The notes beneath the pieces were generated by a model. It was given only the letters and a program-made list of their open reading frames with translations. It was not told the DNA's origin and did not search any database. A DNA stretch of 64,000 nt from an uncultured bacterium (GTDB taxonomy: Bacteria; Babelota; Babeliae; Babelales; Vermiphilaceae): contig OY968764.1 of the NCBI GenBank assembly GCA_963695335.1, positions 1,152,001 to 1,216,000 of the forward strand, read 5' to 3'. Below are positions 14,590 to 62,478 of this stretch, one piece after another; position 1 is the first letter of the stretch, and each line of letters begins with the position of its first letter. The position numbers and the translations under genes are program-made.

Positions 14590-15140
14590 GGGGGCTTAAA
14601 AGCCCCCGCTTCGCTTTTTAAGATATATTCTACTGATTTCGGATGTATTCTCGTATGCGATCTTCGTTTACCTGACCACTTGTTTCTGCAAAATACCCAT
14701 CTGACCAAAAACTTTTACCCCACAAAAACTCTTTTAATTCTGGAAATTCTTCGCGCACAACTTTACTGGTCATTCCTTTAAACAATTGTACCATCCTGCT
14801 CACGCTTACATCTGGATTCATTTGAACTAACATATGAACATGATCTAATTGAATGTTTAGCTCTTCTATTTTCCATCTTTGCAAATCTGCGCATTCATAC
14901 AATAGATCTTTTATTCTTTCTGCTATCTCTCCTTTTAATACTCTCTTTCTATATTTTGGAATCCATACTAAATGATACATAAGTCTGTGCTTTGTTTGAG
15001 ATCCACACCAATATTTACCCATGTTTTTTAGTATGCCTAAAGAGCCGGCTCTTCGCAATTACTATAACTGCATTGCTCCATCGCCTCCATTTTGACTCGC
15101 ATTCATCCCTGGCTTTGAAAAGCCAGGGTTTTCTGCTCAA
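14590..15140. mobile_element. IS200/IS605-family element carrying tnpA only, with terminal hairpins
   Basis: Hairpins ggggctt-aa-aagcccc (~14591-14606) and ccctggcttt-ga-aaagccaggg (~15107-15128) flank tnpA. Confidence 0.7.
14630..15058 (-). CDS. tnpA: IS200/IS605 Y1 HUH transposase TnpA (start probably ATG near 15022)
   Basis: YHLVWIPKYR, DHVHML (HUH), FWSDGYF, YIRNQ. Confidence 0.95.
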   Translation of the reverse strand: MRRAGSLGILKNMGKYWCGSQTKHRLMYHLVWIPKYRKRVLKGEIAERIKDLLYECADLQRWKIEELNIQLDHVHMLVQMNPDVSVSRMVQLFKGMTSKVVREEFPELKEFLWGKSFWSDGYFAETSGQVNEDRIREYIRNQ

Positions 15141-53084: not shown

Positions 53085-55796
53085 ATGATTCCACAGAAAC
53101 TACAAATTAAAAACTTTCTCAGTTACGGCCCTAACTTACAAACAATTGATTTTACAAACCATTCCCTTATTTGTCTTTCTGGCAAAAATGGTCACGGTAA
53201 ATCAGCACTGCTTGATGCAATGACATGGGCAATCTGGGGACAAGCACGCAAAGTATCTGGTGCAGCAAAAGCAGATCAGGGTTTGCTTAGATTAGGCCAA
53301 ACACAAATGCTCGTAGTTCTTGACTTTTTATTTGGTGGTAAACAGTACCGCATACGCCGCGAATATATGGAAACATACGGCAAACCGGTTAATATTCTTG
53401 AATTTGGAATGGTAGACGTTGAATCAGACAGTCTTATTCCACTGACTGACAAAACAATTCGTACAACACAAGAAAAAATTGAACAAACATTACGCCTTGA
53501 TTTTGATTCATTTTCTAATTCAGCATTTTTGCGCCAAGGTAGTTCAAATGAATTTTCAAAAAAATCAGCCAAAGACCGCAAACAAATTTTAGCTACCATC
53601 TTAGGCCTTGATCAGTATGAAGTTATTCGTAAACTGGCACTGGAAAAAGTGAAAGATGCATTCAACAAAAAAACCGTGCTCATGGCGTTGCAAGAAAAAA
53701 GATCACAAGATCTGACAACACAAGAAACACTCAATGCAGAACTTGATCGGCTTAAAACGGAAATGAAAACGCTCACCACGACAGAGCAAACACTACTCAA
53801 TCACCAAAAACAACTTGTTCAACAACGCACTGCATATGACGAACAACAAAAACAACACCACAACCTCTCATTTCAATTACAACAACTTACTCAACAAGCA
53901 ACAACGCATAAACAACAACTCCTTGAGCTGTTTACCCAATGGCGCCAGATCAACAAAAAAAAACAGTCACTTGCCAATATTCAACAACTGCAACACGCAA
54001 AAAACAAAATCGTTACCGCAATTGCAACGCACCAAAAACTCTTACAAGAAAACCTTGAGCATCGTCAAACAATGCTGACTATCACACAACAACTAAACGC
54101 CATTGAACAACAATACAAAGATGAACAGGTCAAACAAAGCCACATAGTACAACTTGAGTTGGAACGATTGCGTGCAGAATACAAAAATCTGCAAACAATT
54201 ATCCAAAATAATACACAACAACTGACGCAGCTAAACAATGATGATGCAGTTCTTGCTGCACAAATAAAAGCACACGAACAAGAACTATCAAAAATAAAAT
54301 GTAATGCTCAAGATATTGCTCACGCAGAAGCACTGCTGGAAAAACGCAAAGCAACATATCAACACTTTGTTTCACTGGGCAATTGGATGAATAGTGAACT
54401 TAACAGCTTAATCAACAAAAAAAAGTTGGTGCATGGGGAAGATTCAAGCTGCCCACTGTGCGATCAGAATTTATCAGCTTCACGCAGAAGACTTTTGAAA
54501 CTTAACTTTGATAAACAAGAATCATTTTTAGCACATAGATTACGTCGCCTGAAACGCATTATTCCGATCATCAAAGAAACATTAATTACCCAACACGCAA
54601 TGATTACCAAAGATAAAGAACAACTGCAACAAGCTGCGCAACTGAACACAAAAATAACTGATGCACACAATGCACGCACAAAAATAGCTGAGCAAATTAC
54701 GCAATTAACAACAGCATCTGCGCAAACAGATGCCAAAACAGCGGAACATACGCACGCAATTGCCACAAAAGAAAAAGAAATTGCGCAACAACAAACTGCA
54801 ACGTTCACAATCAATAACCCAGACTATCTCAAACTGTTGCAGCAAAAAAAACTGTTAGAACAACAATTGCGCAGTCATCAATACAAAGAAGAAGATTATA
54901 AAAAAGATCAAGAACAGCTGACACAAATCGAACTGCAACTTACTGAGCATCAAACAGTGCAACATGATATCGCGCAACAAGAAATACGCACAAACAGTAT
55001 CAACAAATTGTGCGAAGAACTTAAAATTATCAAAAAAAATATACAAATCACTGAAAAAAAACGATCTGCGCTGAGTGATCTTCCTGCGCAACTACGCATA
55101 CTTCAAGAGCAAGAAACAAAACTTGAGTTGCAAAAAACAGAACTCAATCAAACAAAAGAATCGCTGTTGCATGCAAAGGGCAGCATAGAAAACCAACACA
55201 AACATCTGCAAAAAATAAAACAAGAGTTTGAACAAGAACAGACCAATATCGCACAACAGGACGCGATTATGGATGATTATCAAACAATTGCAACCGCAAC
55301 AGGAAAAGATGGTATTCAAGCGCTCCTTATTGAAGAAGCAATTCCAGAAATTGAGCAAGAAGCTAATTATTTACTTTCTCGGCTTACCAATAATCAAGCA
55401 CAAATTTTTATTGATTCATTACGCGATTTAAAAAAAGGTGGTACCAAAGAAACATTAGATATTAAAATTTCTGATCAAGCTGGTATCAGACCATATGAAC
55501 TGTTTTCTGGCGGTGAAGCGTTCCGTATTGATTTTGCATTGCGTATCGCAATTTCTAAACTTCTTGCACGCCGTGCTGGAACTGCATTGCAAACCCTCAT
55601 AATTGATGAAGGTTTTGGGTCGCAAGATGAAGAAGGTTTGGGACATATTATGGATGCATTGCACAAAATACAAGATGATTTTTCTAAAATTATTATTGTA
55701 TCCCATTTACCAAGTATGAAAGATCAGTTTCCCGTGCAATTTTATATTGAAAAAGGTGTACAAGGTAGTACGGTGAGCATTATTGAACAGGGGTAA
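53085..55796 (+). CDS. sbcC: SbcC/Rad50-like SMC ATPase
   Basis: GKNGHGKS, zinc hook CPLC, FSGGE, IDEGFGSQD. Confidence 0.92.
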   Translation: MIPQKLQIKNFLSYGPNLQTIDFTNHSLICLSGKNGHGKSALLDAMTWAIWGQARKVSGAAKADQGLLRLGQTQMLVVLDFLFGGKQYRIRREYMETYGKPVNILEFGMVDVESDSLIPLTDKTIRTTQEKIEQTLRLDFDSFSNSAFLRQGSSNEFSKKSAKDRKQILATILGLDQYEVIRKLALEKVKDAFNKKTVLMALQEKRSQDLTTQETLNAELDRLKTEMKTLTTTEQTLLNHQKQLVQQRTAYDEQQKQHHNLSFQLQQLTQQATTHKQQLLELFTQWRQINKKKQSLANIQQLQHAKNKIVTAIATHQKLLQENLEHRQTMLTITQQLNAIEQQYKDEQVKQSHIVQLELERLRAEYKNLQTIIQNNTQQLTQLNNDDAVLAAQIKAHEQELSKIKCNAQDIAHAEALLEKRKATYQHFVSLGNWMNSELNSLINKKKLVHGEDSSCPLCDQNLSASRRRLLKLNFDKQESFLAHRLRRLKRIIPIIKETLITQHAMITKDKEQLQQAAQLNTKITDAHNARTKIAEQITQLTTASAQTDAKTAEHTHAIATKEKEIAQQQTATFTINNPDYLKLLQQKKLLEQQLRSHQYKEEDYKKDQEQLTQIELQLTEHQTVQHDIAQQEIRTNSINKLCEELKIIKKNIQITEKKRSALSDLPAQLRILQEQETKLELQKTELNQTKESLLHAKGSIENQHKHLQKIKQEFEQEQTNIAQQDAIMDDYQTIATATGKDGIQALLIEEAIPEIEQEANYLLSRLTNNQAQIFIDSLRDLKKGGTKETLDIKISDQAGIRPYELFSGGEAFRIDFALRIAISKLLARRAGTALQTLIIDEGFGSQDEEGLGHIMDALHKIQDDFSKIIIVSHLPSMKDQFPVQFYIEKGVQGSTVSIIEQG

Positions 55797-55800
55797 CCCC

Positions 55801-55911
55801 CCGTTCGCCCTGCCGTGTGCTCCGAAGCCTTTGGCGAAAATGCAAGCTTGTGGAAGAATATTCTGATTCCCCCGCGCTCGCCCTGAACTTGTTGAAGGGT
55901 ATCTTTGAGCG
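55801..55911. repeat. Family-A repeats, one interrupted by B'
   Basis: ccgttcgccctg[ccgtgtgctccgaagcctttggcgaa..]aagcttgtggaag; gcgctcgccctgaacttgttgaagg. Confidence 0.8.
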
Positions 55912-56046
55912 CATTCTTAATAACAATCGAAACACAACACAGTTACTATTCTTTATCAATGATTAAAAAAGAAAAAAGATTTTTTAAAGAAAGAAAAGAA
56001 CGCACTCGAAGATATCCTTCAACAAGTTCAGCGATTATGATCAAAG

Positions 56047-57012
56047 TCAAGTAGAATAGGCATTTTTATTAGGTGCCCACTTTCTATTTTCAGTAAGAAG
56101 AACATTAGCAAGTATAATAAACTTGCGCATTACAGCAATTAGGGCAATCTTAGATGGTTTTCCTTCTTCACGTAATCGCTCATAAAATTTCTTAAAATCT
56201 GGATTATGTTGAACAGCTGAAAGTGTAGGCATATACAGCATTTTTCGTGGTAAGGATCTACCTTCTCTAATGATAGATTTTTTCTTATAATTACCACTTT
56301 CATTGGTGTATGGAGCTACGCCTAATAAGGCTGCAACTTGCTTATTTCCAATACTTCCTAATTCAGAAAAAAAAGCAATTAACGTTGCTGATGTTCCTTT
56401 TCCAGCACCAGGAATTGATGTGATAATATTTTGCTTATGTTTCCAGTCATCATCATTATCAATTAATTGTTCTATTTCTTTTTCCAATTCCTTAACTTGT
56501 TCATCCATAAAATCAATATGTTGTTGAATTTTGTCTTTACAAAATTCAACTTGTGGATGAGCCAATCGTGTTTTTTCTCGACTGATCATTCCCGTCAAAT
56601 CACTTTTCCTTCTTATTAAAGCTTTCAATAATTCTTCATTCTCTTTTGGCACTTTAATGCGTGTTTCCTCTGATAATTCTTTTTGTTGTGCAAACAAAGC
56701 AATCATAGATGCATCAATCTTGTCTGTTTTTGCTTTTGCTCCATCTGATGCGATAAACGACTTAATTCGTTTCGGCTCAATTAGCCATACAAAATATCCA
56801 GCATTACTTAATGTACGAATCAATAATTTTTCGTATCCACCAGATGATTCACATACAACGCGAACAACATTGTACTCAGAAAATACATTAAGTATTTTAT
56901 TGAGACCAGCGGCGCTATTTGGCGTTTTAAAATATTGATTCAATGGACGTAAAAAAACATCCAAATTATCTTTTGAAATATCGACACCAACAAATATTTC
57001 TGTTAGCTTCAT
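56047..57012 (-). CDS. IS110-family DEDD recombinase/transposase
   Basis: VGVDISK, CESSGGY, AKTDKIDA, SIPGAG, GVAP..NESG. Confidence 0.96.
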   Translation of the reverse strand: MKLTEIFVGVDISKDNLDVFLRPLNQYFKTPNSAAGLNKILNVFSEYNVVRVVCESSGGYEKLLIRTLSNAGYFVWLIEPKRIKSFIASDGAKAKTDKIDASMIALFAQQKELSEETRIKVPKENEELLKALIRRKSDLTGMISREKTRLAHPQVEFCKDKIQQHIDFMDEQVKELEKEIEQLIDNDDDWKHKQNIITSIPGAGKGTSATLIAFFSELGSIGNKQVAALLGVAPYTNESGNYKKKSIIREGRSLPRKMLYMPTLSAVQHNPDFKKFYERLREEGKPSKIALIAVMRKFIILANVLLTENRKWAPNKNAYST

Positions 57013-57190
57013 AGTAATTCTTCCTCATAATACGAGCCTTGCGCTCAAGCGATTATTCGAATCTTCTACAAATCTGGTTGATAGCTCTTTAGCTGAAAAC
57101 GGTTCTTGTAACCTAGGACGAGCACAAGACGCTATCAACCTTTTTTTATAGCCTAGTTTCCTAAACCTAAAAAACTCAATAATCTACATG
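57013..57190 (-). ncRNA. Predicted IS110 bridge RNA
   Basis: Two internal loops with guides matching target (GCTCGTCCT / TTCAG) and donor (ATAATCGCT / TATGAG); closing stem ggttgatagc/gctatcaacc. Confidence 0.85.
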
Positions 57191-57334
57191 CTTTTATCAT
57201 ATGAGGACGAGCGCTAAGAATGAATAAATTTTAATTATTCTTAAATTAAATTCACGCTAAATCATAGAAAGTCAGTGAAACTTTCGAATATGCTTTAATA
57301 TAAAAGTATCTGTTTATAATACAAAGGAAAATTC

Positions 57335-58765
57335 ATGTCCAAAAATAGTATACATAAAAAGATTGCTCTCGCCTGCTTTATATCCCTCATAGCACCCATT
57401 CAAACAATCTATTCAGCACAACAATACGGAACTCCAACAGGAACTTCTACACCAACATATGGCGCTCCGGTTACAAATTCTTATCCAACACCTGCACCAA
57501 AAACTAACGGTGAATCAACAGTAGTATACATTCATCAAGCCGTTCAAACACTGAATGATGATGCTGATTGCAACCCAGTAAAATGGGACACTCCAGAAGA
57601 TGCATGCAGTTGTTGCTTAATGCGCAACAAAGGTAAACGAGGCAACAAAAAATCTGCTGATGCCATTATTGAACAATGCACCAAAACAAATAAACAGTGT
57701 ACGGCACAATCCATTACCAACATAAAAAAACAGTACGGTTTATCTGCAACAGCATCATCTCAAGATTTTTTTAATAAATTAGAAGACAACATTGTTATCA
57801 AAAATATGGAGGTGGACAAATCGCTTCTTGGTGCAAACGGCGCATTCACTGAAAACTCTCTACCAAAATTTTTGGCACAAGCGTACAATGAAAAAAAACT
57901 TAAAAATGCAGATTTCAGTAAAGAAGCATGCTTAAAAGCAAAAAATCTTGGAACACAAGGTGGCTACAACACATTGCAACTGTTTCTCATTACTTCAACA
58001 TGTCATGCGGGATCGGCATCTATGTATATTATTAAAGAGGCGCGTAATGGTATTGATGAAGCAACAAAACTCAAAAAAATAGCCGAATATCCTAAAATGA
58101 AAGAGTTGATTGCACCAAACGTTGTTCCAGGACTTCCATCCATTGCATTACCTCTTGCTTATTTTTCCTACCCAGATACCAAATCAGTTCATTATCTTGC
58201 CGCAATGCCTGCAGCAAAAGGTAAAGATCTTTCGGCATATATTATGCAATTCAGAGACAATCAATCAGCACAAAATAAAGAACTGTTGAGCCGCGCATTT
58301 ACCATAGTTGGCAAAGAAGCTGCAAATTTCTATAAACGATTTGGCAAAAAGGTAGTACACGGTGATTTCCACACCTTTAATATTTTTTTTGATCCGATCA
58401 GCGGACATTCTACATGGATTGATACTGAAACAATGGCAAATTCATTTGATAAACCAACTGGTCCTGCTAAAGATATCGTAAAACTCTTTTACATGCCATT
58501 CTGTATCAATGATACATTCCAACAATTTAGAGATTTGATTAAAGGAATTGATCTGAAAACATGGTTTGATATCTCAGTCAAAAATTTTGTTATTGGATAC
58601 AAAGATACCTACAAACCACAAGAACAAAAACAGATAATCCAAGAACTGAAAAAAATGTTTATGGATCCATTTACTATTACATGGGTAGATTTTGATCAAC
58701 AAAAATTGAGCGATCTACAAAAAAATTACATTAGCCCAATTTTTGATGAGTTAATGAAAAAATAA
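57335..58765 (+). CDS. Secreted protein with C-terminal protein-kinase-like domain
   Basis: Leader; GTQGGY, YIIKE, HGDFHTFNIFF, WIDTE. Confidence 0.65.
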   Translation: MSKNSIHKKIALACFISLIAPIQTIYSAQQYGTPTGTSTPTYGAPVTNSYPTPAPKTNGESTVVYIHQAVQTLNDDADCNPVKWDTPEDACSCCLMRNKGKRGNKKSADAIIEQCTKTNKQCTAQSITNIKKQYGLSATASSQDFFNKLEDNIVIKNMEVDKSLLGANGAFTENSLPKFLAQAYNEKKLKNADFSKEACLKAKNLGTQGGYNTLQLFLITSTCHAGSASMYIIKEARNGIDEATKLKKIAEYPKMKELIAPNVVPGLPSIALPLAYFSYPDTKSVHYLAAMPAAKGKDLSAYIMQFRDNQSAQNKELLSRAFTIVGKEAANFYKRFGKKVVHGDFHTFNIFFDPISGHSTWIDTETMANSFDKPTGPAKDIVKLFYMPFCINDTFQQFRDLIKGIDLKTWFDISVKNFVIGYKDTYKPQEQKQIIQELKKMFMDPFTITWVDFDQQKLSDLQKNYISPIFDELMKK

Positions 58766-61073: not shown

Positions 61074-61435
61074 CTACTTCACCCATTCAAGACGAGCAAC
61101 AGTAGCTGTATCACTCATGCGTTTTCCCATAGGAATAACACGAGTGTATCCGCCTGGGCGAGAAACGTATTGCGGAGCAATTTCTTTAAATAATTTAATA
61201 ACTGCATCTGTGTCATATGGCAACAATGCATTGCACACGACGACGTGCATTAAAGTCATTACCCACACGTGCAATAGTTACCACATGTTCAACAAGACGT
61301 TGTGTTTCTTTAACGCGCGCTTTAGTAGAAACCAAGATGTCCGTACTTAATCAAATGAATTGCTTGATTACGTAACATCGCTCTTCTATGAGGCGCTTTA
61401 AGATTTAATTTTTTTCGACCATTTTGATGTATCAT
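61074..61435 (-). CDS. rplQ: 50S ribosomal protein L17 (frameshifted in this sequence)
   Basis: MIHQNGRKKLN...HRRAMLRNQA and RPGGYTRV..R.SD.A in different frames. Confidence 0.88.
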
Positions 61436-62478
61436 TTGATCTGCACCTAAGATCTTCTTAACATTTTCTTCATTGATATTCATACCAAAAGAAAGTCCAA
61501 ATGCTTTCATGCTTTCTTTAACTTCATTCAATGATTTACGACCAAAATTTTTAATCTTCAATGCATCATCTTCAGATACATTAACTAAATCAATAACACG
61601 TTTAATCCCAGCATTGATTAAACAATTATGAGCACGAACAGAAAGTTCAAGTTCTTCAATTGGCTTAAGCAACAAATCAACAGGAACACCTTTAAGACTT
61701 GCATCGCTTGTTTTTAATGGTACTTTTTCTACCTTTTCTTCAGGAAGAGAAGATATTTCATTAAATGGTATTTCAGTGCTTTCAAGGAAATGTTCTAATT
61801 GCGTACGAAGAACTGAAACAGCATAATGCAATGCATCAATAGGATTTTCAGAACCATTTGTATAGATATGCAAAATAAGTTTATCATAATCGATCGCTTC
61901 ACCTACACGTGTTTTTTCAACATCAAACATAACTTTACGTATTGGAGAGAACATTGCATCCAAATAAATACGAGAATCATCTTGATATGCTTTATCTGCC
62001 GGCCACTGAGCTTGTTGATAACCACGCCCAGATTCAACAAAAAATTCAACATCAAGTTCACCATCAAATGCTACATGTGCAAAAACATAATCTTTATTGA
62101 TTAGTTCTAAATGATCATCTGCAACAATATCAGCTACAGACACATCTGCTTCACCTTTTTTGGTACACGCATTTTTCCGGGTTTACCTTCTTTATTACGG
62201 ATAACAATATTTTTGATATTAAGAACAAGCTGCATAGCATCTTCAACAACACCAGGTATTGCTGAAAATTCATTATTAACACCTTTAATAATTATTGATG
62301 TTATTGCAGACCCTTCAACACCACTCAGCAAAATTCGTCGTAACGAATTTCCAATCGTTATTCCAAAACCTGGTTCAAGCGGTTGAACTACTAATTCGCC
62401 GCAACTCTCACTTAACGTCTTTTTTTCCCATTTCAACTGTGGAATGATAAGTGGTTTATATTCCCTATTCTTAGTCAT
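61436..62478 (-). CDS. rpoA: RNA polymerase alpha subunit (frameshifted in this sequence)
   Basis: [40 protein letters not shown]. Confidence 0.95.

What the first reader, a model, noticed from the sequence alone, without database searches (positions are those of the whole stretch)
57013..57190. Fully readable IS110 bridge RNA programmed against the genome's own REP-like repeat
Seen: the reconstructed target on the minus strand is gcgctcgtc-CT-gaacttg and the donor (circle junction) is gatcataatcg-CT-catatg. The non-coding region upstream of the recombinase has a first stem (ggttgatagc/gctatcaacc, 57131-57140/57076-57085) enclosing GCTCGTCCT (57115-57123, equals left target+core), an inner ggtt/aacc hairpin and TTCAG (57093-57097, reverse complement of core+right target). 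A second loop holds ATAATCGCT (57048-57056, left donor+core), an inner gagc/gctc hairpin and TATGAG (57024-57029, reverse complement of core+right donor). Established: this is the target-loop/donor-loop layout of IS621-type bridge RNAs, which also use a CT core. Inference: a new naturally programmed RNA-guided recombinase whose guides can be assigned by eye.
Basis: partly seen in the sequence, partly recalled or inferred. Interest (0 to 1): 0.92.

Follow-up and report, generated by a model that had tools for sequence, protein, structure and literature searches.

The report
REP-targeting IS110 bridge RNA element
A small jumping gene carries a guide RNA whose letters match both its own ends and a short repeat scattered through its host's genome, a clean new example of an RNA-guided system already known from E. 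coli.

Summary
The reading holds. Window 56030-57205 (minus) is an intact IS110-group element: DEDD/Ser recombinase, CT core at both ends, and a circle-junction promoter (TTGACT-17-TATGAT). Its left end has the IS621 bridge-RNA layout. Three identical copies all sit at GCTCGTC-CT-GA, the head of a host REP-like repeat (72 empty perfect sites, 0.19 expected). One correction: the third copy has GAT, so the required right target guide is 4 nt, as in IS621, not 5. Across 30 related elements with both ends readable, guides follow their own targets (11.0 vs 6.9 of 14; 0 of 50,000 permutations). A 68%-identical relative changes one guide letter and one target letter together. The four helices covary, and handshake bases favour insertion (3 pairs after exchange, 0 before). 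Expression and activity were not tested. Against a tidy picture: the free RNA is predicted to pair its leader with the left donor guide. The two nearest relatives lack that pairing, but a sister clade keeps a similar helix (9 of 10). Verdict: new member of a known kind. The boldest open reading is an mRNA/guide folding switch in that clade.

The parts
56030..57205 (-). Whole IS110-group element, core to core (1176 nt with both CT cores)
   Evidence: Three identical copies in G000 share exactly this span
56047..57012 (-). Recombinase gene, 321 aa; D11/E55/D97/D100 and S239
   Evidence: PF01548 78.5 bits, PF02371 61.1 bits; NF033542 199.5 > 140; IS621 and ISCro4 chains E ~1e-40; motif positions
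57204..57205 (-). Left CT core
   Evidence: Boundary of identity among the three copies
56030..56031 (-). Right CT core
   Evidence: Boundary of identity among the three copies
57206..57212 (-). Left target GCTCGTC (host repeat head)
   Evidence: Same 7 nt in 3 of 3 copies
56028..56029 (-). Right target GA (then A here; T in one copy)
56032..56038 (-). Left donor ATAATCG (in the 15-nt right end)
57199..57203 (-). Right donor CATAT (TGTAT in most relatives)
56045..56050 (-). -35 box TTGACT, overlapping the stop codon; works only after circularisation (inferred)
   Evidence: exact TTGACT 19 nt before the core in 10 of 14 metagenome elements whose right end was placed by the guide, not by this box
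57196..57201 (-). -10 box TATGAT; 17-nt spacer across the circle junction; start site near 57189 (inferred)
   Evidence: no such promoter in the linear scan
57142..57174 (-). 5' stem-loop of the bridge RNA
   Evidence: kept with compensating changes in L122 and L123
57175..57184 (-). Leader segment that can pair with the donor-loop 5' strand and left donor guide (predicted alternative fold)
   Evidence: not formed in L122, L123
57076..57140 (-). Target-binding loop: outer stem, left target guide, inner hairpin 57101-57113, right target guide, handshake guide
57115..57123 (-). Left target guide, 9 nt (7 + core)
57093..57096 (-). Right target guide UCAG, 4 nt (57097 is an optional fifth pair)
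57091..57092 (-). Target-loop handshake guide CU
   Evidence: rule from PMC11208158
57016..57063 (-). Donor-binding loop: closing stem 57059-57063/57016-57020, left donor guide, inner hairpin 57034-57046, right donor guide, handshake guide
   Evidence: formed without constraint in L122 and L123
57048..57056 (-). Left donor guide
57024..57029 (-). Right donor guide
57022..57023 (-). Donor-loop handshake guide GA; 57022-57026 also reads as the Shine-Dalgarno-like GAGGA of the recombinase
55875..56029 (.). Host inverted pair of REP-like repeats; the element interrupts the head of one arm
   Evidence: 36-nt arms, 89% complementary; an empty paralogue at G000:124334-124491

Best explanation
An intact IS110-group insertion sequence that moves by IS621-type bridge recombination. 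It excises as a circle at its CT cores (inferred). The junction creates a sigma-70 promoter (shown as sequence) that transcribes the left end and the recombinase gene (inferred). The left-end RNA folds into a 5' stem-loop, a target loop and a donor loop (shown by covariation). The target loop reads GCTCGTC-CT-GA with 9-nt and 4-nt guides, and the donor loop reads ATAATCG-CT-CATA(T) (shown by matches and covariation). The DEDD/Ser241-type recombinase exchanges strands at CT, with handshake pairs favouring insertion (inferred from IS621). The target is the conserved head of an abundant, mostly intergenic host repeat, which gives many low-cost landing sites.
For: Recombinase family and catalytic residues. 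Three identical copies in diverged flanks, all at the same 11-mer. 72 empty perfect sites against 0.19 expected. The repeat occurs 22-65 times in 8 of 10 congeners, in none of which the recombinase was found. Cognate guide-target score 11.00 vs 6.93, 0 of 50,000 permutations, cognate top or tied in 25 of 30. In 12 of 12 elements that use this repeat head, guide positions 6 and 7 equal the target (6 T, 6 C at position 6). L123 changes guide and target T>C together, and donor and donor guide C>T/G>A together. Four helices: 94.4% of 660 cells paired, 17 of 20 pairs with double changes, slid controls 31-44%. Handshake pairs after vs before exchange: 35 vs 12 of 68 and 31 vs 5 of 52; this element 3 vs 0.
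Against: No transcript, circle or recombination was observed. In the free-RNA ensemble the donor-loop closing stem has P = 0.00 and costs about 4.5 kcal/mol against the leader-paired fold. The bulged base in the target-loop stem is G, where IS621 has a conserved A43. Cognate was not top in 5 of 30 elements, and some guides fit poorly (G018 2/7, G191 3/7 on the left). The relatives are kin, so the permutation figures overstate independence.
Confidence: 0.93

Rival explanations
1. Same element, but the transcript is a two-state switch. In the free mRNA state the leader pairs with the donor-loop 5' strand and left donor guide, which masks the guide and frees the ribosome-binding site. Recombinase binding captures the donor-loop fold, which covers the Shine-Dalgarno sequence and start codon and shuts off translation.
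For: P(leader:left donor guide) = 0.95 here; duplex p = 0.005 and 0.008 against shuffled leaders. The donor-loop 3' strand is the GAGG in front of the start codon in most relatives, and here the loop overlaps GAGGA and the AU of AUG. A sister clade (100/100 support) has such a leader segment at p < 0.05 in 9 of 10. It is more conserved (0.75) than the rest of the leader (0.30-0.49), tolerates G-U and has one double change. Precedent for RBS-hiding 5'-UTR control in ISPpu9 (PMC8450116, abstract).
Against: The two nearest relatives carry uncompensated changes in that segment and fold canonically (P = 0.01; p = 0.16 and 0.62). The segment lies at a different place here than in the sister clade. 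Trimming 8 nt from the 5' end removes it, and the start site is only predicted. The helix was picked after seeing the fold. Overall 14 of 34 elements reach p < 0.05. A clear gain in Shine-Dalgarno opening is predicted in only 5 of the 9 genome-derived clade members. The register was optimised per row.
Confidence: 0.2
2. The left end makes only a short seekRNA-like target-loop RNA. The donor-loop match is not used, and the ends are recognised with the flanking target.
For: ISEc21 moves with a 58-74 nt target-only RNA (PMC11187229, passages). The donor loop is unstable in the free fold here.
Against: Donor guides change with donor ends in step (TGTAT/ACAAG to CATAT/ATGAG to TATAT/ATAAG; ACAATCG, ATAATCG, ACAACAG, ACAATTG). 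Donor-loop helices covary. Donor-loop handshake bases track target position 7.
Confidence: 0.05
3. The guide-like matches are chance or relics of duplicated ends, and the repeat is chosen by protein recognition of its hairpin alone.
For: A target stem-loop adds specificity for ISPpu10 (10.64898/2026.03.19.712850, abstract). 0 of 3 copies are in the commonest GAG subtype (56 of 75 sites; P = 0.014), which hints at context effects.
Against: Shuffle test; guide-target covariation, including elements with unrelated targets; the third copy's site folds differently; L122 uses a GAG site with the same guides.
Confidence: 0.02

Closest known systems
IS621 of E. coli and its bridge RNA (Durrant 2024 PMC11208160; Hiraizumi 2024 PMC11208158; Hiraizumi 2026 PMC13626964)
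   Same: DEDD RuvC plus Ser Tnp domain; CT core; long left end with 5' stem-loop, target loop and donor loop; 9-nt and 4-nt target guides; junction sigma-70 promoter; handshake asymmetry; insertion in REP repeats
   Different: Distant protein (E 7.5e-40 to the solved chain); different target and donor; right end only 15 nt beyond the stop; two rather than three bases between linker and right target guide; G at the bulged stem position; predicted leader pairing with the left donor guide
ISCro4 / IS622 (10.1101/2025.05.14.653916)
   Same: Best solved-structure hit (E 1e-41); weak, interrupted donor-loop closing stem like the one modelled here
   Different: Activity shown for ISCro4; nothing tested for this element
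ISPpu9 and ISPpu10 of Pseudomonas putida (PMC8450116; 10.64898/2026.03.19.712850)
   Same: IS110 elements in repeated intergenic palindromes; ISPpu9 has a 5'-UTR fold over the ribosome-binding site
   Different: ISPpu9 control uses two separate small RNAs; none was looked for or seen here
CGTC-tagged REP families (PMC3733652)
   Same: Short intergenic palindromes, often in inverted pairs; the targeted subtype has CGTC just before an imperfect hairpin
   Different: Stem and loop lengths were not matched to families CGTC-1 to -4 (figures not held); about half the copies read CGCC

Membership tests
IS110 family recombinase | [quoted passage not shown] | tested here: met
   78.5 bits, cut-off 29; D11, E55, D97, D100
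IS110 family recombinase | C-terminal PF02371 domain with catalytic serine | tested here: met
   61.1 bits, cut-off 21.3; NESG with S239 aligned to the IS621 ESG
IS110 group (IS621-type) | Short core at both ends, no terminal inverted repeats, no duplication beyond the core | tested here: met
   CT at both ends in 3 of 3 copies; no end-to-end inverted repeat among the 25 longest of 51 pairs shown
IS110 group (IS621-type) | Left end longer than right end and carrying the RNA | tested here: met
   193 nt from left core to ATG; 15 nt between stop and right core
IS110 group (IS621-type) | Sigma-70 promoter formed across the circle junction | tested here: met
   TTGACT-17-TATGAT as sequence; -35 box recurs in relatives; function not tested
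IS621-type bridge RNA | 5' stem-loop plus two stem-loops with internal guide loops | tested here: met
   Helix covariation in 33 sequences; canonical unconstrained fold in L122 and L123. This element's own lowest-energy fold lacks the donor stem
IS621-type bridge RNA | Target guides (9 + 4 nt) covary with the target | tested here: met
IS621-type bridge RNA | Donor guides covary with the rejoined ends | tested here: met
   (columns 3-4 with 236-237)
IS621-type bridge RNA | Handshake guides pair with the non-cognate DNA after exchange | tested here: met
   3 after, 0 before here; 35 vs 12 of 68 and 31 vs 5 of 52 in relatives
IS621-type bridge RNA | Conserved flipped-out A in the target-loop stem (A43) | tested here: inconclusive
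   G at the aligned column in this element, L122 and L123; A in most relatives; placement rests on a sequence alignment
IS621-type bridge RNA | RNA is expressed, binds the recombinase and directs recombination | not testable with these tools
   Needs bench work; no RNA holder listed
IS621-type bridge RNA | Match to the published bridge-RNA covariance model | not testable with these tools
   The model is not held; Rfam 15 gave no match at a gathering score (15 sub-threshold hits)
IS1111 group | Long right end with the RNA, 7-17 bp subterminal inverted repeats | tested here: not met
   Right end is 15 nt and the guides lie upstream of the gene

The most novel reading that the evidence does not exclude
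In this lineage the bridge RNA doubles as a translational switch. A leader segment pairs with the donor-loop 5' strand and left donor guide, so the naked transcript is an mRNA with a masked donor guide and an open ribosome-binding site. Recombinase binding refolds it into the guide form and silences its own translation. This would give the 5' region of bridge RNAs a regulatory role and could limit donor-to-donor recombination. The support is best in the 10-member sister clade and weaker for this element. Searches listed no paper describing it.
Probability: 0.2. Interest if true: 0.65.

Novelty: new member of a known kind. Interest (0 to 1): 0.3.

Why it matters
As biology it repeats IS621 in a distant, AT-rich, small-genome host. 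Its value is practical and comparative. It gives a fully annotated, distant bridge system (guides, handshake bases, promoter, donor) ready for testing. The clade also offers natural one-letter reprogramming: 12 elements aim at variants of one repeat head, and guide positions 6-7 track the variant each time. If the leader/donor-loop switch is real, it would explain how one transcript serves as both mRNA and guide and would bear on bridge-RNA design.

Tried and rejected
Rfam 15 at E <= 5 over 55700-57400: 15 hits, none at a gathering score. Linear promoter scan: 2 sites, fewer than shuffles (6.2), none at the left end. Sequencing runs: no RNA holder listed; 4 of 6 listed DNA runs were laid as contigs and showed no joint, so neither circle nor empty site was seen. 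A 5-nt obligatory right target guide: rejected (GAT and GAG sites used). One insertion copied by segmental duplication: rejected, because the elements are identical while shared flanks are 51 of 70 and 135 of 155 alike and unrelated beyond. RAYT as source of the repeat: 3 Y1 transposase genes, none with these repeats within 400 nt. Leader helix as a conserved feature of this element's own lineage: not supported by L122 and L123. An IS621 locus for a side-by-side fold: none among the 25 + 60 plasmid rows listed, so IS621 was compared from papers only. RNAalifold on whole left ends paired the DNA end with the right donor guide and missed the donor stem, so named helices were counted instead. Earlier scan notes by place and by sequence: nothing. 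Paper searches returned 0; one search listed no paper joining Babelota with IS110. No structure prediction or protein-database scan was run; the family call did not need one.

Full report
Observation. The two 9-nt matches never co-occurred in 100,000 dinucleotide shuffles of the 178 nt, and all four in order occurred 0 times; the short right guides alone are common. The minus strand is the better-folding strand (z -3.69 vs -2.03).

The element. The gene at 56047-57012 encodes a 321-aa IS110 recombinase (PF01548, PF02371, NF033542 above cut-off). The only 2 solved relatives found are ISCro4 and IS621; D11, E55, D97, D100 and S239 are present. The genome (1.37 Mb, 35.7% GC, one contig) holds three copies, identical over 1176 nt from CT to CT. 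Rejoining the ends gives TTGACT-17 nt-TATGAT, the arrangement described for IS621 (PMC11208158 and PMC11208160, passages). That it is a Babelota-like bacterium is my recalled inference from genome size and from the listed kin all falling in one order; no call names it.

The target. The three sites are GCTCGTC-CT-GAA, -GAA and -GAT. The shared target is therefore 11 nt, matching the nine-base and four-base target guides of IS621. That 11-mer occurs 72 more times intact, against 0.19 expected. 63 of 72 are followed by the second arm of a palindrome, and 52 of 72 lie outside any ORF of 120 aa or more, though such ORFs cover 86% of the genome. 8 of 10 congeners carry 22-65 copies, and the recombinase was not found in those 10, so the repeat belongs to the host. 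The window copy and one other sit in diverged copies of a larger inverted repeat pair; identical elements in flanks 73-87% alike point to separate insertions. None of the three is in the commonest GAG subtype (P = 0.014), but L122, with the same guides, is. The window copy faces a divergent gene, while the other two lie downstream of same-strand genes. By the read-through model of PMC13626964 (sections 5 and 11) those two are the likelier sources of RNA (inference).

Relatives. 19 of 261 genomes of the phylum have a close recombinase; 80 of 121 genome loci and 80 of 280 metagenome loci were returned. I kept 34 distinct left ends at 36-86% protein identity and collapsed repeated copies. I dropped G085 (no left end found), L124 (cut), L136, L144, L155 and the more distant hits. 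30 have both ends. The right end of G249 and the left end of G120 were set by hand. Left ends were located with a -10-like pattern, so that box is not independent evidence. Each RNA fits its own target better than others' (11.00 vs 6.93 of 14; 0 of 50,000 permutations; top or tied in 25 of 30). Kinship inflates such tests, but the 13 metagenome elements added afterwards gave the same result (10.92 vs 8.43). Among 12 elements using this repeat head, guide positions 6 and 7 equal the target in 12 of 12, position 2 in only 7 of 12. L123 (68%) changes one guide base with one target base, and one donor base with one donor-guide base. On 33 aligned sequences (G229 left out) the four helices are 94.4% paired, with double changes at 17 of 20 pairs; slid controls give 31-44%. 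The handshake rule holds: 3 pairs after exchange and 0 before here, 35 vs 12 of 68 and 31 vs 5 of 52 in the two sets.

What does not fit neatly. The free RNA is predicted to pair 57175-57184 with the donor-loop 5' strand and left donor guide (P = 0.95). The canonical fold is about 4.5 kcal/mol higher, and removing 8 nt from the 5' end abolishes the pairing. L122 and L123 fold canonically without constraint, so for this element the simplest reading is an idiosyncratic alternative fold that protein binding overcomes. A comparable duplex reaches p < 0.05 in 14 of 34 elements. 9 of these belong to one 10-member clade with full support, joined to this element's branch with only 84/89 support. There the segment is conserved above its surroundings and tolerates G-U (74 of 80 cells paired, register optimised). 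The donor loop also overlaps the translation start in these elements. This suggests an mRNA/guide switch, but Shine-Dalgarno opening is predicted in only 5 of 9 clade genomes. I give it 0.2.

Comparison. It works like IS621 and meets every sequence-testable feature of the IS110 group, apart from one uncertain bulged base; it fails the IS1111 features. REP targeting is the title of the original IS621 paper (seen as a reference entry). Papers seen: PMC11208160, PMC11208158, PMC11187229, PMC3733652, 10.1101/2025.05.14.653916 and 10.64898/2026.08.14.744561 as passages; PMC13626964 as abstract and two sections; PMC8450116 and 10.64898/2026.03.19.712850 as abstracts. No supplement was read.

Verdict. 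Real, correctly read, and a new member of a known kind. Interest 0.3.

Noticed in passing
G000:C1:565584-565799 (L118): A small GIY-YIG nuclease gene is flanked on both sides by five heads of the same repeat family; two other small GIY-YIG genes and three Y1 transposase genes are not. It is a candidate partner enzyme for a repeat type reported to lack a dedicated transposase (PMC3733652).
   Followed up: partly
L094, L097, L098, L002, L102, L103, L003, L104, L135, L101 (leaders): A 10-member IS110 clade has a leader segment just before the target loop that is complementary to the donor-loop 5' strand and left donor guide (9 of 10 at p < 0.05).
   Followed up: partly
L103 (G213) ends: This relative inserts in the same repeat family but on the opposite strand, at a different CT (CGACAAG-CT-CAGGG), with guides to match.
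   Followed up: partly
L097 (G120) left end: The first 18 nt of the left end are tandemly duplicated, possibly a product of donor-like recombination.
   Followed up: no
L095, L109, L113 (G073) and L096 (G089) ends: Cores differ from CT or between ends (TT/TT, CT/TT, AT/CT), as natural examples of first-position core tolerance.
   Followed up: no
window 56005-56038 in run X1: Two low-depth contigs join the element's right end to a GAA-type repeat and then leave the window sequence, which may be other insertion sites in a related population.
   Followed up: no
L100 (G176) right end: A repeat of the target family lies inside the element's own right end, between the stop codon and the -35 box.
   Followed up: no
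window 55797-55840: A second repeat subtype (GTTCGCC-CT-GCC head with a CCGAAGCC..GGCGAA hairpin) abuts the sbcC stop codon next to the inverted pair.
   Followed up: no
G000:C1:1166633-1166992 (window about 14633-14992) and two other places: Three equally scoring IS200-type Y1 transposase genes, one inside this window.
   Followed up: no
window 57335-58765 +: A 476-aa protein with no Pfam or NCBIfam match has an HGDFH..N..F..ID stretch that recalls a kinase-like fold (recalled, not tested).
   Followed up: no
window 61322-62478 -: The rpoA-like gene appears in two frames and runs into an rplQ-like start, which suggests frameshifts or assembly errors (names recalled).
   Followed up: no
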